This document shows positions 45,138 through 61,458 of a DNA stretch of 64,000 nucleotides, piece after piece. The DNA is from Escherichia coli. GTDB taxonomy: Bacteria; Pseudomonadota; Gammaproteobacteria; Enterobacterales; Enterobacteriaceae. The stretch lies in the NCBI RefSeq assembly GCF_024502345.1, contig NZ_JALDNN010000003.1; one strand, written 5' to 3'. Both the position numbers and the translations under genes were made by a program. The notes under the pieces were generated by a model. The model was not told the DNA's origin. It searched no databases and saw only the letters and a list, made by a program, of their open reading frames with translations. The first letter of the stretch is position 1. Every line of letters starts with the position of its first letter.

Positions 45138-45290
45138 TGGAGCACCTCAAAAACACCATCATACACTAAATCAGTAAGTTGGCAGCATCACCGAAAATAA
45201 AATAGAGAGAGTTTTCAATCCGCATGACTTTAAAAAAGACAATTTTTAGAAATAAGCCGGATAAAAAAATAGCTTTATCCGGCACTCATA

Positions 45291-46940: not shown

Positions 46941-46959
46941 ATACCTCCTTCACTGGCGC

Positions 46960-47166
46960 TCAGTTCGAGAATACGTTAACGCTGTACCGTTTACCGAGCA
47001 CCTCGGCAGTGGTATCGACAATTTTCTGAATATCATCGGCAATCGCGGGTTTACTGAATGCGACGGTGTGCAGTTCACCAGCCTGTTCCGCCGTCGCACC
47101 ATCATGAAAGCGGCTGGCATCGTAAAGCTGGACCCGGAGTGTCCGGGTATAATCGACATGGCCCAT
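46960..47166 (-). CDS. small hypothetical protein (68 aa)
   Basis: ORF in unidirectional array; C-terminal block resembles the two 74-aa paralogues. Confidence 0.4.
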   Translation of the reverse strand: MGHVDYTRTLRVQLYDASRFHDGATAEQAGELHTVAFSKPAIADDIQKIVDTTAEVLGKRYSVNVFSN

Positions 47167-47200
47167 TATTCCTCTCCTGTTCAGTCAGGCGCTATACGCG

Positions 47201-47425
47201 TTAATAATCACTTTCTTCCGGTTGCGGCTGGGTGACAAACTGGTACTTCACCCCATTAGGGACGCCAACGGCTTTTGCTACAGATTCACACAGCAGCGAC
47301 AGGTCATTCAGAGTCATCGGATATTCGATATCGACGGAATATAAGGCCCCGGCGTTCTCGGCCTCTTCGATATTTTTATACTGGGCACTGAAAATGGCTA
47401 TGGTAGAGATTTCAAGGTTATGCAT
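47201..47425 (-). CDS. small hypothetical protein (74 aa), paralogue of 53302-53526
   Basis: Shares 19-residue block YPMTLNDLSLLCESVAKA(V/L) with 53302-53526 product. Confidence 0.5.
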   Translation of the reverse strand: MHNLEISTIAIFSAQYKNIEEAENAGALYSVDIEYPMTLNDLSLLCESVAKAVGVPNGVKYQFVTQPQPEESDY

Positions 47426-47478
47426 GAGTCAGTCCTTGTTAATAAAAAAGAAGCCACCGTAAGGTGGCTGAATAAAGG

Positions 47479-47685
47479 TTAATGGACCTGGCTGGCCTTT
47501 TTTTCCGCGTTCTTGTTGTAATCAACGCGGGCAATAACGACGGCAGCGGCCAGGAGTGCAGCGAGACCGCCGTAGAATACTGGTCGGGAGATATCGACGA
47601 ACATATCGCTCAGGTTATCAACGCCGAGGAGAAATACGCAGATAATGACGATAAAGCGAACAGGTTTGCTGTAGAACAATTTCAT
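47479..47685 (-). CDS. small membrane protein (68 aa)
   Basis: Two hydrophobic helices. Confidence 0.4.
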   Translation of the reverse strand: MKLFYSKPVRFIVIICVFLLGVDNLSDMFVDISRPVFYGGLAALLAAAVVIARVDYNKNAEKKASQVH

Positions 47686-47884
47686 CAGGAGCTATCCTTC
47701 TGGGGTGAAATGACACCAGCATTACACCATATCAGATGCCAATTTTTTTTCGGTAACGGGCCTATTTTGACAAGAAAAAAGACACATCAGGGAGGCAATG
47801 ACGAGAGTATTTTCGAGGTGCCTATGGCCTGTCACTTCCTGAACTCAGGAAAAGAACGATGCTGTAGAACACAATCGAAATATA

Positions 47885-47900
47885 GAAAAGTAACTTTTCC
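47885..47900. promoter_or_regulatory. palindromic motif copy R4 GAAAAGTAACTTTTCC
   Basis: Intergenic, 200 bp upstream of 47685 gene start. Confidence 0.45.
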
Positions 47901-48080
47901 ACCGACGATATGTCCGGCGGCAAGTTATTCTTATGCAGGGCACAAATCAGTGAATTGGGTTCCGCGCGGGAAAGTCAAAAAAACTTGCATGTCGTTCCGG
48001 ATGCCAGGCGACGTAGCACATAGATTTGGGCCTGTGTAAGCGGGGAGCTGGGACGTTTTGTGTCTGCCATAATGTTCCTT

Positions 48081-48341
48081 TTATAACGAGGGCTGTCCGG
48101 CTGACAGATTAGCGGACAGACCTGAAAATAACGTGCATATCCAGCACCTGGCTGAATCCCTGAGCGAGGCAAATGCCTTTACTCTTCCCCCTCCGACAAC
48201 AACAAAAATGCGTTGAGCTTCCTCTTCGGCCTGTTCATCAGTCATGCTTTTCTCGCGGATGTGCGAAGTAAACAGGCTCCAGTTTGCAGCGATAAAATCA
48301 CGTACTTGATGCATTTCCGAATTCTCAGCGTCAATAACCAT
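48081..48341 (-). CDS. hypothetical protein (86 aa)
   Basis: ORF in array. Confidence 0.4.
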   Translation of the reverse strand: MVIDAENSEMHQVRDFIAANWSLFTSHIREKSMTDEQAEEEAQRIFVVVGGGRVKAFASLRDSARCWICTLFSGLSANLSAGQPSL

Positions 48342-48429
48342 TTTTAGTGTCCTGTGTCTTAAATAAGGTCCGCCCTGTTAATAGATCAGGGACGGACTGT
48401 TTAAGCGAGATAGCCAGCCTGTGCCGTGG

Positions 48430-48936
48430 TTATCCATTCACCAGAGTGATTTTTGTGGGGGATACTTTGATACTAAAAGCATTAAATTTCTTTTTAAGAG
48501 CGAGTTCAAACCACGCCACCGGGATAGAGACCGAACTATCATCGCCGCCCAATGCCTCCTCTGCCTCGTCATACCATTCATCATCAACAGACGGATTCAT
48601 CCCACGGGCATAGACAACCGTATCACGGGAAACAGGGGTTCCATCCAGAGATGCATTGGTAATCAGATAGACGCCATGATCTTTTACCAGAAGGATCTGT
48701 GGAGTCAGGCGGGCCGGGTCAATGTGTTTGGATGATGGCCAGAAAATTCCCCCCGTCTGGTTCATTTCCACTTCTGTTTTGCCCTCTTCGTTGAGAGGAG
48801 TACCGCCGGGGTAATTTGACGGTTCAAAAAGCTGTTCAATGGTTGCATTGAACCGTTCCGCCGAGCGGAGTTCTTCGAGGAGCTTTTTTACCCCAGCAAT
48901 TTCGAATGTTAATGTGGTCATAAACTTATTCTCCAT
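48430..48936 (-). CDS. hypothetical protein (168 aa)
   Basis: ORF in array, acidic. Confidence 0.5.
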   Translation of the reverse strand: MENKFMTTLTFEIAGVKKLLEELRSAERFNATIEQLFEPSNYPGGTPLNEEGKTEVEMNQTGGIFWPSSKHIDPARLTPQILLVKDHGVYLITNASLDGTPVSRDTVVYARGMNPSVDDEWYDEAEEALGGDDSSVSIPVAWFELALKKKFNAFSIKVSPTKITLVNG

Positions 48937-49234
48937 CCGTAGTCAGCATCAGATATCGGGTGGCCAGTAGCAACTCTTTGACGTCAGCAGTTGAAACCTC
49001 CCCTTTGCCTTCTACCGCGTCCTGCAAACGCTGACGCGTCGCCTGAATCGTCTCTGACGACAGTGACGCCAGTTTGCTCAATACAGCGTTAGCTTTTTCC
49101 ACAGCGGGATACAGGGACTCTGAGGTGGTATTGTCTACATCGTTATCGAAAAACAGGTCAGACTCCATATTAATATTGTCTTCGAGCCAGCTGGTAAGAA
49201 TATCAAGTAAAGACATAACTTTATTAATCTGCAT
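48926..49234 (-). CDS. hypothetical protein (about 102 aa)
   Basis: ATG at 49234 with GAGGG SD; ORF-track N-terminal extension unlikely. Confidence 0.45.
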   Translation of the reverse strand: MQINKVMSLLDILTSWLEDNINMESDLFFDNDVDNTTSESLYPAVEKANAVLSKLASLSSETIQATRQRLQDAVEGKGEVSTADVKELLLATRYLMLTTDGE

Positions 49235-49442
49235 TTTTCTCGCCCTCGGTTGATGTAATTCAAATATAACAAACTGTCTCGTCTGGCTAATAACCCAGAA
49301 TGAAAAAAATAAGCGATTTATTAGATAGGACTGAATTAAATTTAAATGGAGTGCAGCCGGACTCAGTTTAAAAACACTCCGCGCTAAAGGCAGAAAAAAG
49401 CCTTCCGAAAGGGAAGGCTTATGCACTACATCAGGAAAAGAA

Positions 49443-49823
49443 CTATCGCTGCTTCTGGAGCGCGATATACGCTGCGAAAACAGCTACCAACACCGTCATG
49501 AAGTAAACTAGATATGAACCAGATTGCCAGACATTAACGCCAAAAAACGATATTAATTTTCCGTCCGGGATAACAGAAAAAATCAGGTTCCAGAATCCAA
49601 CCAGAACGACCTGAGAGATAATCATTTTACCAAGCGCTCCCAGTTCATGAGCCGCATACATTGCAGCCATGACAAATGTCAGAGCTACCACAAGCAGCGC
49701 AGACAAAGCCACAACCGAAATGCTCAGGCCGACGGATGTAAACAGAATGGCATCTTTAAAAGTCAGACCTGTAAAACCCCAGATCAGAATGGCTAAAATG
49801 AAAAACATAAGGATAAATTTCAC
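49443..49823 (-). CDS. integral membrane protein (126 aa, 4 TM)
   Basis: Hydrophobic throughout. Confidence 0.5.
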   Translation of the reverse strand: MKFILMFFILAILIWGFTGLTFKDAILFTSVGLSISVVALSALLVVALTFVMAAMYAAHELGALGKMIISQVVLVGFWNLIFSVIPDGKLISFFGVNVWQSGSYLVYFMTVLVAVFAAYIALQKQR

Positions 49824-49908
49824 TAGAATTGCGTCCCTCTTTCGGTGGCAGAGTGTCGGTCAGGATGCCTGTGGCGAGGCAACTACAGACAGAATTTAAC
49901 ACAAAAAA

Positions 49909-50193
49909 TTAATTACAAATCCGTTCACAGGCCTGTTTCAATGATTCTTTGGTATGGCTATGTGCGGCCTGATTTAACAATGCCCGGATGTGTAGTTCAT
50001 CATGACCGTCAGCTACAAAGAGTTTGATTTTACTTTCAAGGCGGCTCATGGCTTCGTAGAGTTTTGCCTCTTTATTGTTCTTCATAAAGCGAAGAATGTA
50101 ATCCGCAATAATATGCTCTGGTGGCGTTTTAATTTCACGGCAGCGATTGCTTGTCATGAGTTTTTCCTCAAGTTTGTGGCAAAATGGCACCAT
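49909..50193 (-). CDS. hypothetical protein (about 94 aa)
   Basis: Internal Met start MVPFCHKLEEK... Confidence 0.4.
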   Translation of the reverse strand: MVPFCHKLEEKLMTSNRCREIKTPPEHIIADYILRFMKNNKEAKLYEAMSRLESKIKLFVADGHDELHIRALLNQAAHSHTKESLKQACERICN

Positions 50194-50194
50194 C

Positions 50195-50422
50195 TCATTT
50201 AAGCCACCCTTTTCCGGTTGTATAATTAATTTGACCTGCTTTACACAGCGCCAGCAAACGGCGATCAAGAATATGCGACGGTTGCGGATTGCTTTCCCCG
50301 GCTGCAATCCGGTGACACTCTGCTTTGATCTCTCCGGCAAATAATGTCGAGAACGGCGTAGGAACTGGGGTAAGAATTTCGTTGAGTGCCCTGTCCAGCG
50401 CCAGATACTTATCCATATTCAT
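50195..50422 (-). CDS. hypothetical protein (about 75 aa)
   Basis: Internal Met start MNMDKYLALDRALNEIL... Confidence 0.4.
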   Translation of the reverse strand: MNMDKYLALDRALNEILTPVPTPFSTLFAGEIKAECHRIAAGESNPQPSHILDRRLLALCKAGQINYTTGKGWLK

Positions 50423-50591
50423 GTCCTTGCAGGTAATTGAATGGATGGGATTTAAATTTATTATACTGAATCGAGTTACTAAACTAATATCCTTCAGGAT
50501 GAAGAAAGGAATCATCCACCTTCAGTATGTATTCGACATATAGGACACGTCTCTAAAATTTTTCGCGTTTTCGCGATTTACACCGACAGGC

Positions 50592-50945
50592 CTACCAGTC
50601 ACCACCTTCGATATGAAGTTGCGTCGCAGAAACAGCCACCATTTCCTGCATTGGCTGGTCATGCTTGTTATGACTACTCCCAAGCAGTAGGCTCACCTTG
50701 CCGTTAGCGGAATAAAACATAGCATCAGGAAAATGCTCTCTGACTTCCCCCAGCAATGTGTGCATCGACTGAGTCAGTCGGTAGAATCGACGTGCGGCAG
50801 TCGGCATTGCATCATCAAGGAGATCTCCGGCGTCGCCGTCCCCGCTGTTTATGAAACTCAGTACCTTATCTTCGTCCATTCGAACCTCTTTTTCAGTCAT
50901 GTCATATATATCCATTGAGATATCTGTCAGCCTGAGCAACGACAT
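50592..50945 (-). CDS. hypothetical protein (117 aa)
   Basis: ORF in array. Confidence 0.45.
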   Translation of the reverse strand: MSLLRLTDISMDIYDMTEKEVRMDEDKVLSFINSGDGDAGDLLDDAMPTAARRFYRLTQSMHTLLGEVREHFPDAMFYSANGKVSLLLGSSHNKHDQPMQEMVAVSATQLHIEGGDW

Positions 50946-50960
50946 CAGGCTGACCTTCGC

Positions 50961-51569
50961 TCACCCGGTAATAACGATGGCCTGTTCCAATTGTGGCTGG
51001 CGATCCCCCCGCAGCGCTACCGACTCCTGGAGGCGTGCGGAAGGCATCGTCATTGCCTTAAACCCCTCATCCCGCGAACGCACCAGCATCCCCCACGAAT
51101 GGGTTTCACAGACATCGTTCTCGAAATTGGGTTCGGTCGACAGCAGTGATTCCATCTTCGGTTCGATGTGTACCGGCGCAATGTTTTTATAAACAGGGTG
51201 AACACGACACTGTTCAGACGCTTGTGCTCGGTAGCTCCCTTGCGCCAGCAGCACGTCATGGGAAACCAGGTCATAATCTGTATCTTCGACAAAAGTCTTC
51301 AGGGTGTGCGTTATTTTGCCGAATCCTTCGATATTCCAGACGGACACCATCGTAAACTCTTCAAACGCACGGGGACTTTTGACCAAAAATCCATTCAGCG
51401 CCCTACGCCCCTTCAGCATCCCCACCAGGTATTGCTTGTTGGGATAAGGGCGCATCGCAACAAGGTCATTACCAGTCAGGCGTAGCGACAGTTCCGGGAC
51501 GCTTACGGAATCCAGCGTGCAAAGATTTCCCATCGGATGCAGGATTTTTGGTACAAGGTGCAAAAACAT
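50961..51569 (-). CDS. hypothetical protein (202 aa)
   Basis: ORF in array. Confidence 0.5.
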   Translation of the reverse strand: MFLHLVPKILHPMGNLCTLDSVSVPELSLRLTGNDLVAMRPYPNKQYLVGMLKGRRALNGFLVKSPRAFEEFTMVSVWNIEGFGKITHTLKTFVEDTDYDLVSHDVLLAQGSYRAQASEQCRVHPVYKNIAPVHIEPKMESLLSTEPNFENDVCETHSWGMLVRSRDEGFKAMTMPSARLQESVALRGDRQPQLEQAIVITG

Positions 51570-51599
51570 CGGTATTCTCCTCGTTTATTAAGCCTTCAA

Positions 51600-52136
51600 T
51601 TATTGTGCCGTCGCCTGATGTATTTCGAACCAGAAGACAACCGGCTTTTCCGTGACTTCAATTAACCCAAATCGCTCTGCGGTTCTGAAGTTGACGCTGT
51701 ATGCCCTGGCGCGTTCTACCTGGCGGCTTATTTCTTTCCTCATGCCTTCAACACTTAATGCACCTTTAAAGAGATTGCAGGGGGCGCAAGCCGGAAAAAG
51801 ATTTTCGATTGCATGCAGTTCAGGGTGCATGACCTTACCGGTACTTCGAGCCCGGTGTGTCACTCGACTTCCAGCGGGGGCTCTGACCATTTCAAAATCC
51901 CGCCTCACCGGTTCAACATGATCGGCATGCCAGCCTTTTTCCGGCAAAGGACAGCCGCAGTAGGCACACCGACCGCCAAATTTCAAACGCAGTTCGGCTC
52001 GTTGCTCTTTGGATATTTTATTTTTTGGTTTTGAAAATCGCCCATCATCAGATTCAACCTTCGGGAGGAGTTCTGAAAAATTGGGTAATTCGATTACTGC
52101 GCCTTTGTTATTTAGAACTTTCACCGGACCTCCCAA
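51600..52136 (-). CDS. HNH endonuclease-domain protein (178 aa)
   Basis: CAYCGC...HADHVEP...N...ACAPCN = C-x2-C / H-x-D-H / C-x2-C HNH signature. Confidence 0.75.
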   Translation of the reverse strand: MGGPVKVLNNKGAVIELPNFSELLPKVESDDGRFSKPKNKISKEQRAELRLKFGGRCAYCGCPLPEKGWHADHVEPVRRDFEMVRAPAGSRVTHRARSTGKVMHPELHAIENLFPACAPCNLFKGALSVEGMRKEISRQVERARAYSVNFRTAERFGLIEVTEKPVVFWFEIHQATAQ

Positions 52137-52154
52137 CCATATTAAGACGATTTT

Positions 52155-52466
52155 TTATTTATTTTCCTGAATTAGTTTTCGAATTTTAATCAGGTGTGGT
52201 CGGCTTAATTTGCATAGCTGTTCGGTCGCGGCATCCAGAGTGGGAAATACATGGGCCTCATTAATATCCAGTGTCCAGTATTTCGCTTTACCTTCTCCCA
52301 GATCAGATTCAAAGTAATTCCGCTTTACCCCAATCTGCTTTGGTCTTCCATTAATTCTGACGATTTCATGCCGCTCGTCGAAGATAAAACCCTCTCCGAC
52401 CAACGTCAGGAGGACAAAAGGGCCCTCGGCCTTTTGCGTACCCAGCGAACTCATCTCATTATTCAT
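52155..52466 (-). CDS. hypothetical protein (103 aa)
   Basis: ATGA-coupled to upstream gene. Confidence 0.45.
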   Translation of the reverse strand: MNNEMSSLGTQKAEGPFVLLTLVGEGFIFDERHEIVRINGRPKQIGVKRNYFESDLGEGKAKYWTLDINEAHVFPTLDAATEQLCKLSRPHLIKIRKLIQENK

Positions 52467-53146
52467 ACGACCTCCCCGGTAATACGCTTAAAGTTGACGA
52501 CCCAGACCCACGGGTTGGCCTGCCAACTGTCCTCGCCGTACGTGTTTTTCCAGAGGCTGCGGAAGCCAAGAAAGTGCTTATCGCCAAGAACACAACATTC
52601 TGTTGGTGCGCCTTCAGCTTTGGCATCTTCCTCGCTGATGGTATTTAACCGCTCTACCCGCAAATCGGTAATTTCCAGTGCAATACGGCTGGCCCAGCGA
52701 GGCATATGGATTGAAGGTGTCCACGCACCTTCGAACTTCATATTTTCGGTACGAGGCTTCCAGTCGGCCTCATCAGGGATCGACCACAGCCCATAATCCC
52801 CCGACCGCTGTTCGCAGCTCGCCCGGTAAATGCGGGCTGCTTCAGTCCTGTCCATCACGATGTTGTCATTCCAGTCCACCGCGCACGCATCTTCATTCCC
52901 GAGCAATGAAAACGCCTCACGGACCGTAATGCGGTCGCCAACTACGCCGTACGGACAAGGCCGAAGCGCCGAGTATGGCTGGGTCCCTGTTGGAAGCCAC
53001 CAGTCATGCGTGTGCCCGCGATGTCGCGGTGTTTGCGCAGGCCTTATAGACCATTCATCCGAACTATATTGAGGCTTTATAATCCGCCGCGTCTGTGTTT
53101 TCTGATCTGCCAGAATTGCCCGGACCATTTCATCATTAAAAAGCAT
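52463..53146 (-). CDS. phage-type ASCH/PUA-like protein (tentative)
   Basis: N-terminus MLFNDEMVRAILADQKTQTRRII resembles common phage ASCH-domain proteins. Confidence 0.5.
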   Translation of the reverse strand: MLFNDEMVRAILADQKTQTRRIIKPQYSSDEWSIRPAQTPRHRGHTHDWWLPTGTQPYSALRPCPYGVVGDRITVREAFSLLGNEDACAVDWNDNIVMDRTEAARIYRASCEQRSGDYGLWSIPDEADWKPRTENMKFEGAWTPSIHMPRWASRIALEITDLRVERLNTISEEDAKAEGAPTECCVLGDKHFLGFRSLWKNTYGEDSWQANPWVWVVNFKRITGEVV

Positions 53147-53301
53147 TCCACGAGTCTTCACTGTGCTGACTCCTTTCACACATGGTTCACACATTGAGAG
53201 GCCTATCCCTCTTTATCAGCCAGGCATACCGAAACTGTCGGTAGTTTTACGGGAACGGGCAACTGCCCCCCTACCTGATAAAGTGGTGTTCTCCCCCAAA
53301 A

Positions 53302-53526
53302 TTAATCGTATTCCCCATCCACTACCGGCTCAGTCGTAATTTCATATTTCACTCCGCCGGGTACATCCAACGCTTTAGCGACGGACTCACACAGCAATGA
53401 CAAATCATTCAGGGTCATTGGGTATTCAACTTCCAGGCTGTGCAGTGCATTGGCGCTGGCAGCAGCAGCCTTGTCAGCATGACAGGCATTAAAAACGAAA
53501 ACGGTGGTTTTTTCTTGAATAGGCAT
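53302..53526 (-). CDS. small hypothetical protein (74 aa), paralogue of 47201-47425
   Basis: ...EYPMTLNDLSLLCESVAKALDVPGGVKY... Confidence 0.5.
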   Translation of the reverse strand: MPIQEKTTVFVFNACHADKAAAASANALHSLEVEYPMTLNDLSLLCESVAKALDVPGGVKYEITTEPVVDGEYD

Positions 53527-53612
53527 AGTGCAATCCTCTGAATAATTAGCCCTGTGATCAGGGCGGTTTTTGATTAAATTTAAATGTTCGTTTTCAATAA
53601 TTAGTGAATCTG

Positions 53613-54077
53613 TTAATCGGGTTGTGACTTATCATTTTCTCCAACCGAAGTGCTGTCGAGAAATGACCATTCTTGTTTGGGGCTTTTATATAATGCACTA
53701 GCCTCAGTACTCATCCACGACTCACAGGCTTTATAAGTCATGCCTTCCTCTCTAACGCGGTCCTTAAAATACGCCCAGGCTTGCAGATCAAGCGGCTGAT
53801 ACTCTTTCAGCGACTGGTCAAGCCTTTCCTTCCAGATTTTCTTCCGATGAGTAAAATGAGGAAAAGCCAGGAATGCATAACTACCTGCAACAAAAAAAAA
53901 GAACAGGAGTCCGCCCCATAGAGAATGTTTGAAAAACACCAGTCCTGGGAAAATCCATGCCACAATGGCAACAAATAAAAGAAGGTGCTCCTTCCCAGTA
54001 GGTTTATTAAAATGCCAGGAAATTGCAATACACTTTAATTTACTAAAGTGATTTTGTTTCTCCTTAATATCGGTCAT
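53613..54077 (-). CDS. membrane protein (154 aa)
   Basis: Two long hydrophobic segments. Confidence 0.5.
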   Translation of the reverse strand: MTDIKEKQNHFSKLKCIAISWHFNKPTGKEHLLLFVAIVAWIFPGLVFFKHSLWGGLLFFFFVAGSYAFLAFPHFTHRKKIWKERLDQSLKEYQPLDLQAWAYFKDRVREEGMTYKACESWMSTEASALYKSPKQEWSFLDSTSVGENDKSQPD

Positions 54078-54123
54078 ATATCAGTCCTTACTTATAAAAA
54101 AATGGTTATTATTAGTCTGATGT

Positions 54124-54137
54124 AAAAGTTACTTTTC
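54124..54137. promoter_or_regulatory. palindromic motif copy R5 AAAAGTTACTTTTC
   Basis: 47 bp upstream of 54077 gene start. Confidence 0.45.
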
Positions 54138-54259
54138 AAAACAGTCCCTTTAACGAATTCCGCACCTGCGCTCATTACAACACACACCATTCGGCGCTTT
54201 TTCCGTTAACGGGGCTATTTTCACGTTTTTTGCACGTATGTCTGATTTTGCTGGTGGGC

Positions 54260-56689
54260 TCACGCCAGCAGGCGGACCATACGTTTCAACAGAGGCCTTA
54301 ACAACGCCGCCGTCCTCTCCCGGCATTCATCCACATGCCGGAACCCCGTCTTTTTCGAAGACTGGGGGCCGGATAACATCCGCAGCTCCCAGATGACTTC
54401 CCGTAAGGTTCCTTCGCGCTCCGGCGAAATACACCCGGCTAATGTCTCCAGAAAGCGTTTTCTTACGGCCCGGTAATACAGACGTTCTTCCGGTTGCTGT
54501 GACGAAATCCGCAGGTTACAGAGGGTCAGGACAGCGTCAAGAGTCCTTGCCTTCAGTTCGTCTCCCGTCCGGGCCAGATGTAGCTGTTGTTCTGTCTCCA
54601 GTTGCGTCGTTATCCACCCCCCCAGAGGGGTTTTGTTGTAGGTGTGCAGTGCCACACAGGCCGCAACACAACACCAGAAGCGCAGTTTCTGCCGCTGCCC
54701 CCGCAGTTTGCGGGCTACGAGCAAGCGATAATCGCTGTCGGTCAGGATCTTGAAACGGCGGCTGGCGAGCAGAGACGGCAGCGGCGTCTGGTCGTTAATG
54801 CCAAGACGTGAATAGGCCTGCCCGCGTTGAGCGAGTCGATGGTACACCGCACCTTTCCCCCGCGAAATTCGGACGGCGCCGTATCTAAGCAGGTACTGTG
54901 CCGCCGCCACAGGGGTAAACTCACCGTCAGACACACGCTGGCGTAATCCGTCATATTCATGCCAGATAATCCAGGATGCCGTGTCTTCATCGACCGTCAG
55001 CTCATCCTCTTCTTCGAATGCAACGATGTTCAGGCCTTCCCCGCTACTCATCAGACTGCGGGAAGCTCGCTCATCCTCCCGACCGTCAAAATAGGCTATT
55101 TCGGATGACGGATCGGACAGCCCGTCAAATGACGTCCCGATACGGCCTTCCGGCAACTTCATCCAGCGTGGTGCTGGCATCGGCGTGCGGGGTACTGGTT
55201 GCATAGCTGGCTCATCGTCGAGAAGATCCAGTGCCCCCCCTTCCCACACCTGGCGGTAAAGTTCAATGGCACGAAATGGGCGCGGGTTAAAGCAATGCAG
55301 TGACCAGAGAAAGTCGATATGCAGCACGTTAGCCTCCTGCACCAGTCGAAACTGCGGCTCCGACATGCGGCGGTTATGCGCGGTATCTTCGATCTCGCCT
55401 GAAAGTAACTTTTCATGCACCGCTGCGGCCCGCTGAGCCTCCACGTAATCGAGGCTGCAACAGATATGGAACAGTCTTTCGGTCAGGGACGACGAGAACA
55501 CATTGGGCTGAAGACGCACATACCCGCCCTCAAACACTTTGCGTCCGATATAATCCCGAAGGCTCCAGTCGTACTGAATTTTGGTCAGGAAACGCTGAAG
55601 GCGGTTGAGACCAGCCTGGTAGCCGTACTTCTCAGGGTCAGTGCGGAGTAAGGTTTCCATCGAGTGATCAATGCCGACGGCGCAGCATAGCGAGCATCCA
55701 TAGCGAGCGCCGCAGGCAGAAGACCGGACAGTGGATTTCTCCGGCGTCCAGATACATTCCCCGGTCGCGTCTTTGTAAAGCGTGGCGAGGCTGAAGTTGT
55801 CCGGCAAAAAGCTTGGCAGCGGAAATCGCGCCAGAGAACCACAGGCCATCAGAAATGACCAGATATCCTGTGCCCGCCACTCTTTCACCGGGTACAGTTC
55901 GCCGCCGTGCTCCGTGAGCGAGACGCTGTCCGCCTGCCCGCCCATTCTTAGGATGTTGTCTGCCCGACGGGCGCTCTCATCATCGCGGGAACCCAGCATC
56001 AGGCACACTTTGTTGCGGACAGAAGCAGGTGCATTTTTCAGATAACGGGCTTTGGCCTGGCGCAGTGGAGAACGCTTTAGATCTGTAGCGCATTGACGCG
56101 TAGAAGAATTTGTCCAGGTTGGAAGTCCACGCCCGGTCAGAATGCGTCCGACCCAGCTCTGGGTCATGGACGGGCGGGCCACAAGGACGGTCAAAGGCAG
56201 TTCTTGTTCGGCAATAAAGGCTCTGAGCTGGCTGAGAACCTGCGTGGCCTGATGATGCATCTCAGGGTTTTCAATCAGGGTGTCAGACATCTGAATGAAG
56301 TGGTGCTGGCTGACGTTCGACCCGTTTCGTACTGCACGGATCAAGGCCATAAGGAACAAGTGCAGTAGCGAGTGAGAGTCTTTCCCGCCGCTGTAGCCGA
56401 CGCACATGGTCCAGCCTTCGGTAATCGCATGATAAATGGCACTGGTTGCCGTCGTCACGCGCGAAGCGAGACTGATCGGCTCACCGGCATCAGTATAATT
56501 CAGATCCGCATCGGTCTTCAGTGTCTGCCAGACATCGCCCCATTTATCCTGCGTCAGAATGGCAGCGTTAGCCGCCTCAGAAAATTGAATTTCTGAGGGT
56601 AATTCAAGGAATGTTTCTTTCATTTCGATATACATATTATTTCCTGAATTTGGCTTTCGCTGTATTGTCGCGATATTTATTAAATCCAT
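54260..56689 (-). CDS. large PP-loop ATP-pyrophosphatase (PAPS-reductase / DndC-like) domain protein, 809 aa
   Basis: PP-loop GYSGGKDS near residue 100; Cys cluster ACGARYGCSLCCAVG; long C-terminal extension of unknown function. Confidence 0.75.
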   Translation of the reverse strand: MDLINIATIQRKPNSGNNMYIEMKETFLELPSEIQFSEAANAAILTQDKWGDVWQTLKTDADLNYTDAGEPISLASRVTTATSAIYHAITEGWTMCVGYSGGKDSHSLLHLFLMALIRAVRNGSNVSQHHFIQMSDTLIENPEMHHQATQVLSQLRAFIAEQELPLTVLVARPSMTQSWVGRILTGRGLPTWTNSSTRQCATDLKRSPLRQAKARYLKNAPASVRNKVCLMLGSRDDESARRADNILRMGGQADSVSLTEHGGELYPVKEWRAQDIWSFLMACGSLARFPLPSFLPDNFSLATLYKDATGECIWTPEKSTVRSSACGARYGCSLCCAVGIDHSMETLLRTDPEKYGYQAGLNRLQRFLTKIQYDWSLRDYIGRKVFEGGYVRLQPNVFSSSLTERLFHICCSLDYVEAQRAAAVHEKLLSGEIEDTAHNRRMSEPQFRLVQEANVLHIDFLWSLHCFNPRPFRAIELYRQVWEGGALDLLDDEPAMQPVPRTPMPAPRWMKLPEGRIGTSFDGLSDPSSEIAYFDGREDERASRSLMSSGEGLNIVAFEEEDELTVDEDTASWIIWHEYDGLRQRVSDGEFTPVAAAQYLLRYGAVRISRGKGAVYHRLAQRGQAYSRLGINDQTPLPSLLASRRFKILTDSDYRLLVARKLRGQRQKLRFWCCVAACVALHTYNKTPLGGWITTQLETEQQLHLARTGDELKARTLDAVLTLCNLRISSQQPEERLYYRAVRKRFLETLAGCISPEREGTLREVIWELRMLSGPQSSKKTGFRHVDECRERTAALLRPLLKRMVRLLA

Positions 56690-56811
56690 TTAATATCTTC
56701 AGCGCAATATGTGAAGCTAAAAATAGTTAAATTGAAATCATGCCAATTTAATTAAATAACACTGAACAAATAAAATTACGCGGCAATAAATATATTATGT
56801 TCTCCACGCTC

Positions 56812-57258
56812 TCACGAATACTGCTGGGTAATTAAAACCGTCGCATTTGATTCCAGCTCTGCCAACGGAATTAGGGGCGTATTGAGCATCATGTCATCGC
56901 CGCAATGACGGGGTACAGCCGTCAGATGAAATGATTCTTTCATGACCCGGATGGAAGTTGTTTCCGTGCGGCAGGAGGGCATTACGTCCCGGAGCATCGT
57001 TTCCTGTCCGCTGCTGTCACTTTCAATAAACGCAGCCTGCGACATGAGAACCTCAATGTCCTCTTCCAATGTTTCGGACCAGTGGCAGTCATAGAAGAAA
57101 AACTCGGCGGCGTACAAATCATTTTCTTTCACGTATGCCGCCAGTTCACGGATACGCTTAGCCAGCGACGTATCAATGGAAAAGAAGACGCTTTGCGGGA
57201 CATCACTCGCAAATTCATTGATGCAGCTAGCGGACAAAATCAGGATTTTATTGGTCAT
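56812..57258 (-). CDS. hypothetical protein (about 148 aa)
   Basis: Internal Met MTNKILILSASCINEF... Confidence 0.45.
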   Translation of the reverse strand: MTNKILILSASCINEFASDVPQSVFFSIDTSLAKRIRELAAYVKENDLYAAEFFFYDCHWSETLEEDIEVLMSQAAFIESDSSGQETMLRDVMPSCRTETTSIRVMKESFHLTAVPRHCGDDMMLNTPLIPLAELESNATVLITQQYS

Positions 57259-57305
57259 TTTCAGCTCTCCATGCCACCGGCTGTTCCGGTGGCAATCAGG
57301 GATTA

Positions 57306-58112
57306 TCAGGCAGTCACGGGGCACAATTCGTCAAGTGAAGGCAGTAATTTGCTCAGGCTTTCGTACACGACGGGCATCAATTCAGTGACGCTGTGAAGCG
57401 CCATGCTGGTATTGTCTTCTTCGCTGAGAATGATAACTCCATCCTCACCAGGATTGTCGGGCGTGCTCTCGTCAGAGGCCAGGCGGTGGCGTGCAACGTC
57501 ATAAGCCGATTCTGATTTTTTGCAGCTCATCAGATAGCATTGAGTGTATGTGTATTCGTGGTTGTACTGGTTCACTTTCACCAACGCATACTGAACACCG
57601 GCATCATGAGCTTCGTTCATCAGGCGAGAAAAATTAAAGCCTTCTTCGTAGTGGTGTGTATCTTTAGTCACCACAATAGTCGCACCGCCGAACTCGTTTT
57701 CGCGTGGTCGGTCGCAGACGAAAGCGGCATTGATTGTGACCATCTCAGGCAGGTTAAACACCGACAACACGGCAGTTGTTACCGCGATAGCGTGGTCGAG
57801 GTTAATGCTTTCATCATGGCAGATTGCCAGGCCTTTACCGGTGATTTCCGCTTTGAGTTCCAGCTCGTAATTGTCTTCTGGTGACTCCGACTGACCAAAA
57901 GTCGGCTCAAACGGATCGCACTCCGGGTGGTTCTGAATAATACCCAGGACAAGCAATTCAGTGAGGGAACACTCTGAAACCGGTTTAGACAGCAAGTGTT
58001 CACCTTCCGCCACATCCGTGTCTGTAACATACGCAATCGCGTCCAGTGCCATCTGTGCCTGTTCCTGTGAACAGAGAATTGTGAAGGATGCCTGAGTGTA
58101 ATTGTTCGCCAT
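57306..58112 (-). CDS. hypothetical protein (268 aa)
   Basis: ORF in array; acidic. Confidence 0.5.
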   Translation of the reverse strand: MANNYTQASFTILCSQEQAQMALDAIAYVTDTDVAEGEHLLSKPVSECSLTELLVLGIIQNHPECDPFEPTFGQSESPEDNYELELKAEITGKGLAICHDESINLDHAIAVTTAVLSVFNLPEMVTINAAFVCDRPRENEFGGATIVVTKDTHHYEEGFNFSRLMNEAHDAGVQYALVKVNQYNHEYTYTQCYLMSCKKSESAYDVARHRLASDESTPDNPGEDGVIILSEEDNTSMALHSVTELMPVVYESLSKLLPSLDELCPVTA

Positions 58113-58339
58113 TGCATAACTCCTTATTTAATTAAATGTGATTGCTGTCTGTGAATAGATAATATCAAAACAGATACCTGCACCTAATAACCAATAATGA
58201 AATATGTTCGAAATTTTTATAGAGCAGACAGCGCCATATTTAATAATCCAACTTTTATTCTGGATACGGTGTAAAATAAATATACGGGAAAACAAAAAAC
58301 CGCCACAAGGGCGGAATTTATTAGACGGGAAAGATTTGG

Positions 58340-58603
58340 TTATACGGTATGTGTCAGGGAGGAAGCAATGAGCCTGTCTGGTAACAGTGATTGTAGGGAC
58401 GCAGACGAAATAACAAGCACCTGATCCAAGTGCGCTATACCTTCGTCGATATGTTGCTGGAATGCCGCTTCAGCTTCACCGCAGGAGTCCGCTTCGACCA
58501 GCATCACCTCTTCCTCATCATCAAACATCATGCGGCCTGAGATAATATACAGTCGGCTTAAGTCCGGGGTATTTACAGCGATGCCCTGTTCGTTAATCAT
58601 CAT
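58340..58603 (-). CDS. hypothetical protein (87 aa)
   Basis: ORF in array. Confidence 0.4.
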   Translation of the reverse strand: MMINEQGIAVNTPDLSRLYIISGRMMFDDEEEVMLVEADSCGEAEAAFQQHIDEGIAHLDQVLVISSASLQSLLPDRLIASSLTHTV

Positions 58604-58659
58604 TTTTCTCCGCCTTCAATTTTTAAATTTGTCAGTTCTGCTACGTGTAAAAAACAGCA

Positions 58660-58992
58660 TCAGCCCTGTAAACCCGGACAGGTATCAACGTAGCTCATTG
58701 GTTTGCCGATCGCGGCGCTCAGGCGAAGGATTTCGCCGATGGAGACGTACCGAAGCATTTCCGAACGCCCGTGTTTCTGGTATTCATCCACCGACATAGT
58801 GCGCCAGTCCTTGTGCGGTGCGGTTTTGCACAACTGCCAGTTGTCGGCAGTGGTCGGGCGACGCAGGACATATACACCCAGCGAAGGCGTGAGGCCACTG
58901 CCGAATGCCTGCTCCACCACAATACGTACTTCAGAGCCGTCGGGGCGTTTCAGTGTCTGAGTAATTTTAGTAATGAGCTGTTCGGATTCCAT
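58660..58992 (-). CDS. hypothetical protein (110 aa)
   Basis: ORF in array. Confidence 0.45.
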   Translation of the reverse strand: MESEQLITKITQTLKRPDGSEVRIVVEQAFGSGLTPSLGVYVLRRPTTADNWQLCKTAPHKDWRTMSVDEYQKHGRSEMLRYVSIGEILRLSAAIGKPMSYVDTCPGLQG

Positions 58993-59288
58993 ACTATTAA
59001 CCTCGACCGTCAGTTGGGTTGCTGTAGGGATATTTTACCAAAGTCGGCTCTCTGGCTAATAAGTAAGAAGTGATTTTTTTCATTCATTGAAGTTTCTTTC
59101 ATATGGAATGAATATTAATTATTTAAACTGACTCGGCCTATTTTAATTATTATTAATCAGGGTATTTAATGTGCAAATTGGCAGGGCGCTGAATTACCGG
59201 GCATCCATTGCCCGGACAGTTTATTAAAAAAAACTGATAATGCCCCGCCGGAGAATTACGCCAATTCCTGTGAAGGCATGGTCTGGCT

Positions 59289-59312
59289 GAAAAGTTACTT
59301 TTCCCGGTTGCC
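59289..59312. promoter_or_regulatory. palindromic motif copy R2 GAAAAGTTACTTTTCCCGGTTGCC
   Basis: In 500-bp ORF-free region upstream of 58992 gene. Confidence 0.5.
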
Positions 59313-59491
59313 CTGCCTTGATCCCGTATCGTTTATACCGGTCTGCTCTTACATCCTACCTGGGCAGCAGCTGGCTACGGTGATCGGGTATTAAAATAGA
59401 ACCGGTCTGTTTTACCGCAGATTCAACGCCCCGCACCTAGCGTAAAATCGCCTTTCCCGGATGCCCTCCTTAGTCGTCCGGCACGATGGCG

Positions 59492-60653
59492 CTACTCCCA
59501 GCGATAAGGGGTAAAATAGTCCTCGTTAACAGCAAGAAATTCGGTCAGGGAATGCATCGCCTTCGTGTCATATGCCGTCACAATAAAACGGTATCCGTCC
59601 ACCGTTTCGATGTAGCTGATCCCCCGTGGCGTGCAACTGGATTTCACAACTTCCGCCGTCATCATAAACTGCCCTTGCGGGAATTCCGGTGACAGGTAGA
59701 TAAAGCCAGTGGTGGCTGATGACGGGTTGGCATTCATCAGCACGCTGTTAAATTGCTTTCCGTGCCGCGCCGGAATCAACGCGCTCCCCGCTGTCGCCTG
59801 AGTCATCAACTGGCGGATCAGGGTTTCCTCTTTATCTGAGCTGTAGGCGCGAACATCATTTTCAGCCCCGGAGCGTGAGTAGACGCCGACATGAGCAAGA
59901 CGTCGGTACTCGTTACGCATATAGGCATGACAGGATGCACCGGCTCGCCCCTGAAGAGTGACGCCAAAGTCTTCACATAACATCAGTACCTGGCGCAGGT
60001 TTTTGTCATAGACCGTGGCAGAGAGCGCCAGGTTATAGCTGATGAATGTCAGCTCAAAAACCCGGGTATGTGCGTCACTAAGGTGTGCCTCCATGCGGAT
60101 CACTGGTTTCTCCGTCATTGGAAACGGCGTACCGGCCAAGCAGTACGAGGTAACATCGCTAAAACACTCGTCGATCACACTGGCAATGACCGTATCGGCG
60201 TCAATGACAGCCGGAGCTGGAACATAAATCTGAAACTGTCCTTCAGTGCCCGGTTGGATCAGGACGGGGTATAGACGCGGGGAATTGAGTTGTTCGCAGT
60301 CGGCATTGATCAGTTCTGTCCAACCGGGTTTTCCGGTGGGAGCATCAAGGCGAAGACCCAGGTTATCGCAGAAGTCGACGATCTGGCGGGAGTGCTCCAC
60401 CATCACTGCCCCGGAGAGTGTCAGACCGTGCGTAACCATCTGCATCTCACTCGTCCGGGTCTGGGAGTTCTGGGACCAGGGCTGTAATGAAAGCGTCGTC
60501 CGACTTAAGGAGGGAATGATGGTTTCATTCAGAGGTTCAATAAGCTGGCAATGCGCATACAGCCGGGTGGCGAGGAAGTCAAATATGAAGCTTGCCTGTT
60601 GTTTTGTGCTGGCCTGAATATAAAACATCGCATCCATGCCTGAATCCCGGGAT
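59492..60653 (-). pseudogene. 395-codon gene of unknown function split after codon 7 by IS1; first 5 codons and start of the TSD remain at 61436-61450
   Basis: Removing IS1 and one TSD copy restores ATG AAA CTT TTC GGT ATT TCA TCC CGG... (MKLFGISSRDSGMDAMFYIQ...); ORF-track start MAASPG is encoded by the IS1 terminus. Confidence 0.7.
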
Positions 60654-60717
60654 GAAATACCGGGTGATGCTGCCAACTTACTGATTTAGTGTATGATGGT
60701 GTTTTTGAGGTGCTCCA

Positions 60718-61415: not shown

Positions 61416-61458
61416 GTTGGAGTCATTACCGAAATACCGAAAAGTTTCATTTTTTACC

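What the first reader, a model, noticed from the sequence alone, without database searches (positions are those of the whole stretch)
46960..60653. Unidirectional array of about 20 small genes between the IS1 copies (leading-region-like architecture)
Every credible ORF from 46.96 to 60.65 kb is on the minus strand with short spacers, ATGA or near-zero couplings and several small membrane proteins. With the hok toxin and ParB-like gene in the same orientation at 39.9-44.3 kb, this resembles plasmid/ICE leading regions or prophage accessory arrays, which are known hotspots for anti-restriction and anti-defence genes. Almost none of the proteins is recognisable.
Basis: inference. Interest (0 to 1): 0.55.

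Follow-up and report, generated by a model that had tools for sequence, protein, structure and literature searches.

The report
One-way accessory gene array, IncHI plasmids
This is a conserved backbone stretch of IncHI1 resistance plasmids (R27/pHCM1 type): 22 small genes, about 32 with the flanks, all read in one direction, which resembles a plasmid establishment and anti-defence block but lies on the relaxase side of the transfer origin, so it is not a textbook leading region.

Summary
Window 46960-60653 carries 22 co-oriented minus-strand genes, and the run really spans 39.5-62.3 kb. Both IS1 copies are secondary insertions.

The DNA is 99.9% identical to IncHI1 plasmids pHCM1 and R27, and it is syntenic with IncHI2 and IncHI1B plasmids.

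Some features look like a leading region:
- hok/sok, a HigB-like toxin and a ParB-family protein;
- a DndC-like PP-loop enzyme whose homologue in a MOBF plasmid sits in a canonical leading region beside KlcA and orphan methylases;
- co-induction with transfer genes in published R27 htdA-mutant arrays.

The position does not fit. In R27 and IncHI2 the array lies beyond the 3' end of the relaxase operon and converges on it, 10-44 kb from the presumed oriT. Under the usual polarity rule it enters late and is not templated by the transferred strand. No ssb, psiB, ardA or klcA was found.

The closest precedent is the IncC array that contains the proven hde operon.

A 13-bp palindrome, AAAAGTWACTTTT, marks the main spacers. 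R27 has 25 copies. It clusters upstream of the ParB-like gene in three IncHI lineages, which suggests KorB-like control.

Function remains inferred.

The parts
63001..63013 (.). 13-bp palindrome AAAAGTTACTTTT in the divergent spacer at the head of the array
   Evidence: corresponds to R27 64083
61819..62286 (-). First array gene: 155-aa protein with two DnaJ-type CxxCxGxG zinc-finger motifs
   Evidence: only weak PHROG matches (best 5e-8 to an unknown family; Q-like 4e-4)
61459..61755 (-). HigB/RelE-like toxin, 98 aa; stops 8 nt before the native start of g22
   Evidence: Pfam HigB-like_toxin; phrog_3066 1.8e-18; 90% identical in IncHI2
60663..61430 (+). IS1: a simple insertion with 9-bp target duplication CGGTATTTC (60654-60662 and 61431-61439), inside codon 6-7 of g22
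   Evidence: absent at this site in R27, pHCM1 and IncHI2
59492..60662 (-). g22: 393-aa protein of unknown function. Its native start codon (61448-61450) and first codons (down to 61431) are now separated from the body by IS1
   Evidence: no family hit; 62% identical in IncHI2
58993..59491 (.). 499-nt spacer holding palindrome 59290-59302, a long-range inverted repeat (59125-59147 / 59390-59412) and AT-rich promoter-like hexamers
   Evidence: ssDNA fold z = -2.96
58660..58992 (-). g21, 110 aa, unknown
58340..58603 (-). g20, 87 aa, acidic (net -12); followed by a terminator-like hairpin at 58314-58300
57306..58112 (-). g19, 268 aa, very acidic (net -31); family restricted to IncHI plasmids; fold has no significant PDB match
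56812..57258 (-). g18, 148 aa, acidic (net -13), unknown
54260..56635 (-). g17, 791 aa: N-terminal DndC-like PP-loop ATP-pyrophosphatase (SGGKDS, conserved Cys182/308/314/317) plus a 350-aa helical C-terminal part with no known family
54124..54136 (.). Palindrome AAAAGTTACTTTT, 47 nt upstream of g16, overlapping a TTGAAA -35-like hexamer
53613..54077 (-). g16, 154 aa, 2 TM; followed by a terminator-like hairpin at 53564-53549; absent from IncHI2
53302..53526 (-). g15, 74 aa, acidic; paralogue of g2 (57% identical)
52463..53161 (-). g14, 232 aa: homologue of phage P1 PmgT (57%); absent from R27 and IncHI2
52155..52466 (-). g13, 103 aa, phrog_30913 (unknown); ATGA overlap with g14; absent from R27
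51600..52124 (-). g12, 174 aa, HNH endonuclease; absent from R27
   Evidence: phrog_2118 2.7e-54
50961..51569 (-). g11, 202 aa, DUF6012; truncated in R27
50592..50945 (-). g10, 117 aa, acidic, phrog_27273 (unknown)
50195..50416 (-). g9, 73 aa, phrog_7185 (unknown)
49909..50157 (-). g8, 82 aa, phrog_1344 (unknown)
49443..49823 (-). g7, 126 aa, about 5 TM membrane protein; followed by a terminator-like hairpin at 49420-49398
48926..49234 (-). g6, 102 aa, DUF957, acidic
48430..48921 (-). g5, 163 aa, DUF3085, acidic
48081..48341 (-). g4, 86 aa, unknown
47886..47898 (.). Palindrome AAAAGTAACTTTT in the 395-nt spacer upstream of g3
47479..47685 (-). g3, 68 aa, 2 TM; followed by a terminator-like hairpin at 47469-47452
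47201..47425 (-). g2, 74 aa, acidic; paralogue of g15
46960..47166 (-). g1, 68 aa, unknown
44420..46950 (.). Inserted segment: IS1 (44420-45192) plus captured chromosomal corA, ysgD and a yigE fragment. It interrupts the array and is inverted relative to R27
42487..44254 (-). Array continuation: 107-, 56-, 103- and 201-aa genes of unknown function
41975..42288 (-). hok/sok type I toxin-antitoxin locus
   Evidence: Pfam HOK_GEF; Rfam sok 89 bits
41209..41339 (.). Two palindromes (41209-41221 perfect; 41327-41339 one mismatch) flanking a conserved TTTAAA-17-TATAAC promoter-like element upstream of the ParB-like gene
39910..41115 (-). 401-aa ParB-family DNA-binding protein: HTH_ParB at residues 149-209; N-terminal GFNTR and GACRIRA motifs
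38412..39380 (-). IS5-family transposase marking the rearrangement that truncates the array in this plasmid

Best explanation
The region is part of a conserved IncHI backbone block. In R27 this block is about 33 kb of one-directional genes running from the RepHI1B/Ig-like gene region to the 3' end of the relaxase (Tra1 'H') operon.

I read it as the IncHI counterpart of the establishment and host-defence-evasion arrays of other conjugative plasmids. It mixes several kinds of genes:
- addiction modules (hok/sok, a HigB-like toxin);
- DNA-acting enzymes (a solitary DndC-like Fe-S/PP-loop enzyme, an HNH nuclease, a P1 PmgT homologue);
- many small acidic or membrane proteins;
- exchangeable cassettes between lineages.

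It is wired into plasmid-wide control. Its main spacers carry a 13-bp palindrome that also recurs across the rest of the plasmid. The palindrome is probably an operator for a ParB/KorB-like protein encoded in the array, and the array's genes rise with the tra genes when the HtdA repressor is lost.

Proposed mode of action: the genes are kept low in an established plasmid. They burst when repression is absent, either in a fresh transconjugant after second-strand synthesis or in transfer-derepressed donors. Their products then protect or modify the incoming DNA and stabilise it.

Shown: identity, synteny, position, motif statistics, domain assignments and the published expression changes.
Inferred: the operator-protein pairing, the timing of expression and any anti-defence activity.

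It is not a leading region by position.
For: Identity and conservation:
- 99.9% identical to pHCM1/R27-type plasmids; 272 of 277 matching plasmids are predicted conjugative.
- Collinear in IncHI2: 17 of 22 genes at 51-80% amino-acid identity, with extra cassettes including an orphan DNA methylase.
- An array around a 36%-identical ParB-like gene exists in IncHI1B/FIB Klebsiella plasmids.

Link to transfer:
- The array abuts the relaxase operon in R27 and IncHI2.
- In R27 microarrays of the htdA mutant at 25 C, R0071-R0075 rise 5-15-fold and R0086-R0093 rise 1.8-14-fold (PMC7366339 supplement). Mapping R0086-R0093 to g8...g1 is my inference from ORF counts.

Gene content:
- hok/sok, a HigB-like toxin and a ParB-family protein.
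- The g17 homologue in MOBF plasmid NZ_CP150022.1 lies in a canonical leading-region array: DndB, N6-MTase, KlcA-type antirestriction protein and DUF4942, pointing at oriT/relaxase.
- The IncC homologue lies in the one-way array that also contains the hde operon. That operon was shown experimentally to give anti-restriction and CRISPR evasion in the recipient (PMC7498323).
- DUF905/YubL, present in the full R27 array, is listed second in Samuel et al.'s table of leading-region gene families, with 4709 members.

Regulatory motif:
- 7 perfect sites in the window against 0.09 expected.
- 25 perfect sites in R27, 13 of them in the 20% of the plasmid without annotated CDS (P = 4.5e-4).
- The same motif occurs in IncHI2 and IncHI1B, with 2, 2 and 5 copies just upstream of the ParB-like gene. 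It is absent from the IncC, MOBF and P1 loci.
Against: - No product matches a known anti-restriction, anti-CRISPR, SSB or PsiB family in Pfam, PHROGs, NCBIfam or PADLOC.
- R27 lacks g12-g14 and parts of g10-g11 yet is a working conjugative plasmid, so those genes are dispensable.
- The htdA effect is not specific: 139 of 181 expressed R27 genes are derepressed.
- The palindrome also lies inside genes and at tra promoters, so it may serve TrhR/TrhY/HtdA or another protein rather than the ParB-like one. R27 has three ParB-like paralogues.
- The one-way orientation is also what co-orientation with replication predicts: the R27 cumulative GC skew has its minimum near RepHI1B and its maximum near 148 kb.
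Confidence: 0.45

Rival explanations
1. It is a true leading region. IncHI plasmids would transfer with the opposite polarity to the textbook rule, so that the relaxase operon and then this array enter first. The transferred strand would then be the template for all array genes, which would be transcribed early from ssDNA.
For: - All array genes point towards the presumed oriT, as leading-region genes do.
- If transfer ran leftwards in R27 coordinates, the transferred strand would be their template (geometry, inference).
- Content resembles a leading region: hok, a ParB-like protein, DUF905, and a methylase in IncHI2.
- The conventional leading side of R27 holds tra operons rather than typical leading genes.
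- A published survey found no complete anti-defence system in PTU-HI1A.
- One 499-nt spacer folds better than shuffled sequence as ssDNA (z = -2.96) with a long-range stem.
- I found no paper giving the nick polarity of R27 or any MOBH1 plasmid.
Against: - The field's rule places relaxase and accessory genes in the lagging region.
- The MobI/TraH gene next to the presumed oriT is read away from it, like F traM/traY.
- Even with reversed polarity, 10 kb of opposite-strand tra genes would enter before the array.
- Two other large spacers show no unusual ssDNA folding (z = -1.3 and -0.1).
- Rfam finds only sok.
Confidence: 0.2
2. There is no shared function. The stretch is an accretion zone of unrelated selfish or cargo cassettes (toxin-antitoxin modules, a homing-type HNH, phage-derived genes). 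Their common orientation simply reflects selection for co-orientation with replication from the RepHI1A/B origins.
For: - The GC-skew pattern of R27 fits bidirectional replication from about 55 kb, with the array on the co-oriented arm. The other long array (150 kb through 0 to 40 kb) is co-oriented on the other arm.
- Eight products match PHROG phage families: six of unknown function, plus the g12 HNH endonuclease and g17. g14 is a P1 PmgT homologue.
- Cassettes come and go between R27, pHCM1 and IncHI2.
- IS elements insert here without apparent harm.
Against: - 17 of 22 genes have kept order and orientation across the IncHI1/IncHI2 split at only 51-80% identity, which argues for selection on the block.
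- Conserved operator-like palindromes sit in its spacers in three lineages.
- The genes respond to the conjugation regulator HtdA.
- Homologous arrays in IncC and a MOBF plasmid contain proven or classical anti-restriction genes.
Confidence: 0.3
3. The block is a prophage or ICE remnant, or an IS1 composite transposon moved as a unit.
For: IS1 copies flank 45.2-60.7 kb. Several products match phage protein families.
Against: - The right IS1 has its own 9-bp duplication and is missing from R27, pHCM1 and IncHI2.
- The array continues on both sides of the IS1 copies.
- No integrase, terminase or structural genes are present.
- The same block lies at the same backbone position in hundreds of IncHI plasmids.
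Confidence: 0.02

Closest known systems
Leading regions of F-, IncI- and MOBF-type plasmids (Samuel et al. 2024, PMC11541004)
   Same: - A long one-way run of small, mostly unknown genes next to the transfer genes.
- It contains a hok-type toxin, a ParB-like protein and DUF905/YubL (in the full R27 array), and orphan methylases in relatives.
- A homologue of g17 sits in such a region beside KlcA in NZ_CP150022.1.
   Different: - The array lies on the relaxase side of the presumed oriT and converges on the relaxase operon.
- No ssb, psiB, ardA or klcA was found.
- No convincing Frpo-like elements were found.
- Transferred-strand templating is not established.
IncC/SXT 'hde' host-defence-evasion operon and its surrounding array (Roy et al. 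2020, PMC7498323)
   Same: - The plasmid family is also MOBH/MPF_F.
- It is a 40-kb one-way array remote from the canonical leading position.
- It contains a 48%-identical homologue of g17 together with genes shown to act in the recipient against type I R-M and CRISPR.
   Different: The hde genes themselves (AAA ATPase, vcrx090, ssb, bet, exo) are not in this window. In R27, homologues of neighbouring IncC array genes (AAA ATPase, DUF3150, VWA, toprim) lie in a separate array at 173-180 kb. No function has been tested for any gene of the IncHI array.
IncP (RK2) kil-kor regulon controlled by KorB
   Same: A ParB-family protein is encoded within the regulated block. A 13-bp palindromic operator is scattered over the plasmid at promoters, at a distance from them and inside genes. 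Sites flank the regulator's own promoter. The comparison with KorB operators is from my own knowledge of RK2.
   Different: - The sequence is unrelated to the KorB operator.
- No adjacent ParA/IncC or KorA partner is present.
- Pfam assigns HTH_ParB, not the KorB domain.
- Binding is untested, and three paralogues plus the tra regulators compete as candidates.
DndC of the Dnd DNA-phosphorothioation system
   Same: The PP-loop SGGKDS and conserved cysteines align with true DndC. PADLOC DndC gives 2e-37. The fold is of the PAPS-reductase and Fe-S thiolase type.
   Different: - It scores 114 bits against a curated cutoff of 290.
- It has an extra 350-aa C-terminal part of unknown family.
- No dndA/B/D/E genes are nearby in IncHI plasmids. 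Only the MOBF relative has a DndB-like neighbour.
Phage P1 pmgT operon
   Same: g14 is 57% identical to PmgT, a gene of unknown function under a C1-controlled operator.
   Different: Only this one gene is shared. It is missing from R27 and IncHI2.

Membership tests
Plasmid leading region | Lies directly beside oriT on the side opposite the relaxase (first DNA to enter) | tested here: not met
   In R27 and IncHI2 the array lies beyond the 3' end of the mobI-traI-traD operon, 10-44 kb from the mobI/trhR spacer taken as oriT. The oriT position is taken from annotation and from the literature statement that oriT lies upstream of mobI. It was not mapped here.
Plasmid leading region | Genes oriented so that the transferred strand is their template | not testable with these tools
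   I found no nick site or transfer polarity for IncHI or MOBH1 plasmids. Under the conventional polarity the feature is not met. Under reversed polarity it is met.
Plasmid leading region | Frpo/ssi-type ssDNA promoters upstream of operons | tested here: inconclusive
   One spacer (58993-59491) folds at z = -2.96 with a 23-nt long-range stem. Two others are not different from shuffles. Rfam finds nothing relevant.
Plasmid leading region | Hallmark genes (ssb, psiB, ardA/klcA, orphan methylase, hok-type TA, YubL/DUF905) | tested here: inconclusive
   Present: hok/sok and a ParB-like protein in the window, DUF905 in the full R27 array, a methylase in IncHI2. Absent: ssb, psiB, ardA, klcA.
Plasmid leading region | Early (zygotic) expression in transconjugants | not tested
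   Only donor-cell microarrays exist.
ParB/KorB-type global regulon | ParB-family protein with an HTH and an N-terminal arginine-patch (GxxRxxA) domain | tested here: met
   HTH_ParB 3.3e-5; Caulobacter ParB 6s6h 3e-4; phrog_1033 ParB-like 8e-18; GFNTR and GACRIRA motifs.
ParB/KorB-type global regulon | Short palindromic operator repeated at many promoters and conserved among relatives | tested here: met
   25 perfect sites in R27, 13 of them in CDS-free DNA (P = 4.5e-4). Conserved in IncHI2 and IncHI1B and clustered upstream of the ParB-like gene.
ParB/KorB-type global regulon | The protein binds the palindrome and represses transcription | not testable with these tools
   Needs EMSA, ChIP or reporter assays.
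ParB/KorB-type global regulon | Adjacent ParA/IncC or KorA partner gene | tested here: not met
   The neighbours of the 401-aa gene are small genes of unknown function.
Dnd phosphorothioation system (DndC) | PP-loop motif and conserved cysteine cluster | tested here: met
   S82, G84, K85, D86, S87 and C182/C308/C314/C317 are invariant across 42 sequences including annotated DndC.
Dnd phosphorothioation system (DndC) | Reaches the curated DndC equivalog score | tested here: not met
   114 bits against a cutoff of 290.4.
Dnd phosphorothioation system (DndC) | Clustered with dndA/B/D/E | tested here: not met
   None in the IncHI arrays. A DndB-like neighbour is present only in the MOBF relative.
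IS1 composite transposon | Two IS1 copies mobilising the enclosed DNA as a unit, with one target duplication at the outer ends | tested here: not met
   The right IS1 has its own 9-bp duplication and is absent from relatives. The enclosed DNA is in its normal backbone context.
Prophage | Integrase, packaging and structural genes, attachment sites | tested here: not met
   None in 39-64 kb. The block is plasmid backbone.

The most novel reading that the evidence does not exclude
IncHI plasmids run a KorB-like circuit. One of their orphan ParB-family proteins would bind the 13-bp palindrome RGAAAAGTWACTTTTCY at about 25 sites and silence a displaced 'leading-region equivalent'. That array would hold new anti-defence functions, among them a solitary DndC-like Fe-S/PP-loop enzyme that chemically marks or shields the incoming plasmid DNA. 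This would explain how R27-type plasmids enter diverse Enterobacterales without any known anti-defence gene.
Probability: 0.15. Interest if true: 0.75.

Novelty: new variant of a known kind. Interest (0 to 1): 0.5.

Why it matters
IncHI1 and IncHI2 plasmids carry multidrug resistance in typhoid Salmonella and mcr-type colistin resistance in E. coli. Surveys of leading regions found no complete known anti-defence system in PTU-HI1A and left open how R27 crosses host barriers.

This array, with its IncC counterpart that contains the proven hde operon, is the obvious place to look. It also shows that in MOBH plasmids such genes need not sit where the 'leading region' rule predicts.

The conserved palindrome and the ParB-like proteins give a concrete, testable handle on plasmid-wide regulation.

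Tried and rejected
- Known anti-defence or defence families: PHROGs, NCBIfam, PADLOC and precomputed Pfam on all 22 products plus flanking genes gave only HNH, DndC-like, HigB-like, ParB-like and DUF labels.
- C-terminal half of g17: no Pfam hit and only generic helical matches.
- Frpo-like ssDNA promoters: one suggestive spacer, two negative.
- Duplicated 'palindrome + membrane gene + terminator + 74-aa gene' module: only the 74-aa genes are paralogous; g3 and g16 are unrelated.
- Q-type antiterminator reading of the first gene: only a 4e-4 PHROG hit; Pfam sees just zinc-finger motifs.
- Transfer polarity of R27, IncC or SXT: not stated in any paper I could open, and the original R27 papers are not held.
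- The palindrome sequence was not found in any relevant paper in the library.

Full report
**What is there**

ORF listing and two independent sets of gene calls agree. Window 46960-60653 holds 22 protein-coding genes, all on the minus strand. Most have Shine-Dalgarno sequences, the spacers are short, and there is one ATGA overlap. Three products are small membrane proteins, and ten have a pI below 5.

The IS1 copies are at 44420-45192 and 60663-61430, in inverted orientation.

The run does not stop at the IS1s. Upstream lie a HigB-like toxin gene (61459-61755) and a 155-aa zinc-finger gene (61819-62286). Downstream lie four small genes, hok/sok (Rfam sok, 89 bits), a 134-aa gene, a 401-aa ParB-like gene (39910-41115) and a 93-aa gene. 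That gives about 32 co-oriented genes from 39.5 to 62.3 kb.

Three secondary events have altered the array in this plasmid:
- The right IS1 is a simple insertion with its own 9-bp duplication (CGGTATTTC) inside codons 6-7 of g22. It splits that gene from its start codon.
- The left IS1 belongs to an inserted IS1-corA-ysgD-yigE' segment of chromosomal origin.
- An IS5-family element truncates the array at about 39.4 kb.

**Where it comes from**

The segment is 99.9% identical to the IncHI1 plasmids pHCM1 (NC_003384, 4363-18056) and R27. It matches 277 plasmids, of which 272 are predicted conjugative with a MOBH relaxase and MPF_F.

In R27 the one-way run is about 33 kb (64.8-98.1 kb), interrupted by Tn10 and IS1-corA. 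It starts at a divergent spacer next to the Ig-like/RepHI1B region. It ends against the 3' end of the Tra1 'H' operon: NERD nuclease, S49 peptidase, DUF4400, coupling protein, MobH relaxase and MobI-like TraH. These are read in the opposite direction, away from the 758-bp mobI/trhR spacer where oriT is placed.

IncHI2 has exactly the same architecture. Seventeen of the 22 genes are collinear at 51-80% amino-acid identity. g3, g4, g7, g9, g14 and g16 are missing, and IncHI2 has extra cassettes, including a 416-aa orphan DNA methylase and TelA-like genes.

R27 itself lacks g12-g14 and parts of g10-g11. So the block is a conserved scaffold with exchangeable cassettes, and several genes are dispensable for a working conjugative plasmid.

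**What the genes are**

Family searches recognise few of them:
- g12 is an HNH endonuclease.
- g14 is 57% identical to phage P1 PmgT, which lies in a C1-controlled operon of unknown function.
- g8, g9, g10 and g13 match PHROG families of unknown function.
- g5, g6 and g11 are DUF3085, DUF957 and DUF6012.

g17 falls far below the curated DndC cutoff (114 against 290 bits). It has no dnd neighbours. It carries a 350-aa C-terminal helical part with no known family. It is therefore not a Dnd system member, but it is plausibly a nucleic-acid-modifying enzyme.

The 401-aa protein is a ParB-family member. It has an HTH_ParB domain, similarity to the Caulobacter ParB DNA-binding domain, and an N-terminal GxxRxRA-type motif.

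The very acidic g19 (net charge -31) was my best DNA-mimic candidate. Its model has no significant structural neighbour.

**Is it a leading region?**

For:
- The g17 homologue in an 82-kb MOBF/MPF_F Enterobacter plasmid sits in a textbook leading region. That is a one-way array holding DndB-like, N6-methylase, DUF1419, KlcA-type antirestriction, DUF1380, PrlF/YhaV and DUF4942 genes. It points at the oriT spacer, with the coupling protein and relaxase following on the same strand.
- DUF905/YubL, present in the full R27 array, is listed second in the table of leading-region gene families of Samuel et al., with 4709 members.
- In published microarrays, array genes rise 2-17-fold in the transfer-derepressed htdA mutant at 25 C. 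So do 139 of 181 expressed R27 genes, so this is not specific.

Against:
- The field defines the leading region as the oriT side opposite the relaxase. By that rule this array is the trailing end.
- Because the array converges on the relaxase operon, its coding strand would be the transferred strand.
- No ssb, psiB, ardA or klcA is present.
- Only one spacer (58993-59491) shows better-than-shuffle ssDNA folding (z = -2.96).

I could not find the nick polarity of R27 or of any MOBH1 element in the papers available. The reversed-polarity rival therefore stays open at about 0.2.

**The closest functional precedent**

The closest precedent is in the sister MOBH family IncC. There the g17 homologue (48% identical) lies in a 40-kb one-way array. 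That array also contains the hde operon (AAA ATPase, vcrx090, ssb, bet, exo). Roy et al. showed that this operon gives type I anti-restriction and CRISPR evasion through expression in the recipient.

A recent survey notes that anti-defence genes of PTU-C cluster 50-100 ORFs from oriT. The same survey found no complete system in PTU-HI1A. MOBH plasmids thus appear to keep such functions in long arrays away from the canonical leading position. This window fits that pattern.

**A regulatory element found on the way**

The perfect palindrome AAAAGT(T/A)ACTTTT occurs 7 times in the window, against 0.09 expected, and 25 times in R27. Thirteen of the R27 sites lie in the 20% of the plasmid without annotated CDS (P = 4.5e-4). 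The flanks extend it to RGAAAAGTWACTTTTCY.

Within the array the perfect sites fall at the following places:
- the divergent spacer at the head of the array (63001);
- three of its five largest internal spacers (59290, 54124, 47886);
- upstream of the ParB-like gene (41209, plus a one-mismatch site at 41327).

Upstream of the ParB-like gene, the two sites flank a promoter-like TTTAAA-17-TATAAC. This element is conserved between IncHI1 and IncHI2 although the rest of the spacer has diverged.

The same 13-mer is present in IncHI2, including the oriT spacer. In a Klebsiella IncHI1B/FIB plasmid the ParB-like protein is only 36% identical, yet five copies sit in the 660 nt directly upstream of that gene. 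The motif is absent from the IncC, MOBF and P1 loci, and I did not find it in the literature library.

This resembles the KorB operators of IncP plasmids (my own knowledge). It suggests repression in the established state and a burst where the repressor is absent. R27 has three ParB-like paralogues. Sites also lie at tra promoters, so TrhR/TrhY/HtdA remain alternative binders.

**Rival for the one-way orientation**

The cumulative GC skew of R27 has its minimum near RepHI1B (about 55-68 kb) and its maximum near 148 kb. Both long arrays of the plasmid are co-oriented with the inferred replication forks. Orientation alone therefore says little about function. The case for a shared role rests on conservation, regulation and the homologous arrays in other plasmids.

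**Verdict**

The block is transfer-linked plasmid backbone with leading-region-like content, but it is not a leading region by position, and no anti-defence activity is shown.
- The sequence is known and widespread, and its function is not.
- The displaced position, the solitary DndC-like enzyme and the conserved palindrome with ParB-like proteins make it a moderately interesting and directly testable candidate for how IncHI plasmids establish in new hosts.

Noticed in passing
window 18334, 19847, 41209, 47886, 54124, 59290, 63001 (perfect); 41327, 55401 (one mismatch): The 13-bp palindrome AAAAGTWACTTTT is hugely over-represented: 7 sites against 0.09 expected in the window, and 25 in R27. 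It is enriched in spacers and conserved in IncHI1, IncHI2 and IncHI1B plasmids, including the oriT spacer. It was not found in any relevant paper in the literature library.
   Followed up: partly
window 39910-41115; R27 (L002/L003) 92336-93541, 45191-46348, 40890-41966: IncHI plasmids carry three paralogous orphan ParB-family proteins in addition to the ParAB partition pair. The array copy has 2 (IncHI1, IncHI2) or 5 (IncHI1B, L018 14416-14870) palindromes just upstream.
   Followed up: partly
window 60654-61450: IS1 is inserted with a 9-bp duplication (CGGTATTTC) inside codons 6-7 of g22, 8 nt downstream of the HigB-like toxin gene to which g22 is normally coupled. If g22 were the antitoxin this should be harmful, so it probably is not, or it is re-expressed from IS1 or an internal ATG.
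   Followed up: partly
window 44418-46897: The IS1-corA-ysgD-yigE' segment is inverted relative to R27. It is a piece of enterobacterial chromosome captured by IS1 in the middle of the array.
   Followed up: no
window 50560-53055: The block g10-g14 (including the HNH endonuclease and the P1 PmgT homologue) is missing or truncated in R27. g14 is also absent from IncHI2. This may be a mobile HNH-associated cassette.
   Followed up: partly
window 47201-47425 and 53302-53526: Two 74-aa acidic paralogues (57% identical, core YPMTLNDLSLLCESVAKA). Each lies just downstream of an unrelated small membrane-protein gene and a terminator-like hairpin.
   Followed up: yes
window 61819-62286: The first gene of the array encodes a protein with two DnaJ-type CxxCxGxG zinc-finger motifs and a weak (4e-4) PHROG match to Q-like antiterminators. 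This is of interest given the terminator-like hairpins inside the array, but it is unproven.
   Followed up: partly
window 59125-59147 / 59390-59412: A 23-nt inverted repeat 242 nt apart encloses the palindrome in the 499-nt spacer upstream of g21. The ssDNA fold z-score is -2.96. It could be an ssi/Frpo-like element or an RNA leader.
   Followed up: partly
window 1-39400: The rest of the window is a mosaic. It holds citrate-utilisation genes, a segment of IncHI1 backbone in another order (the dcm/thermonuclease region near 17-21 kb), low-GC DNA at 29-31 kb, and IS elements. The Tra1 region that follows the array in R27 is not adjacent here.
   Followed up: no
R27 L005 23473-29761 and L002 407-1718 (R0204-R0002): A second one-way cluster (AAA ATPase, DUF3150, VWA, toprim) is homologous to genes flanking the IncC hde operon. 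It is the most strongly 25 C-induced non-tra block in R27 (9-23-fold in PMC7366339). It is a further anti-defence candidate.
   Followed up: no
L018 19885-25335 (NZ_CP053766.1): In IncHI1B/FIB Klebsiella plasmids the corresponding one-way array runs straight into a type IV-A CRISPR-Cas (Csf) locus.
   Followed up: no
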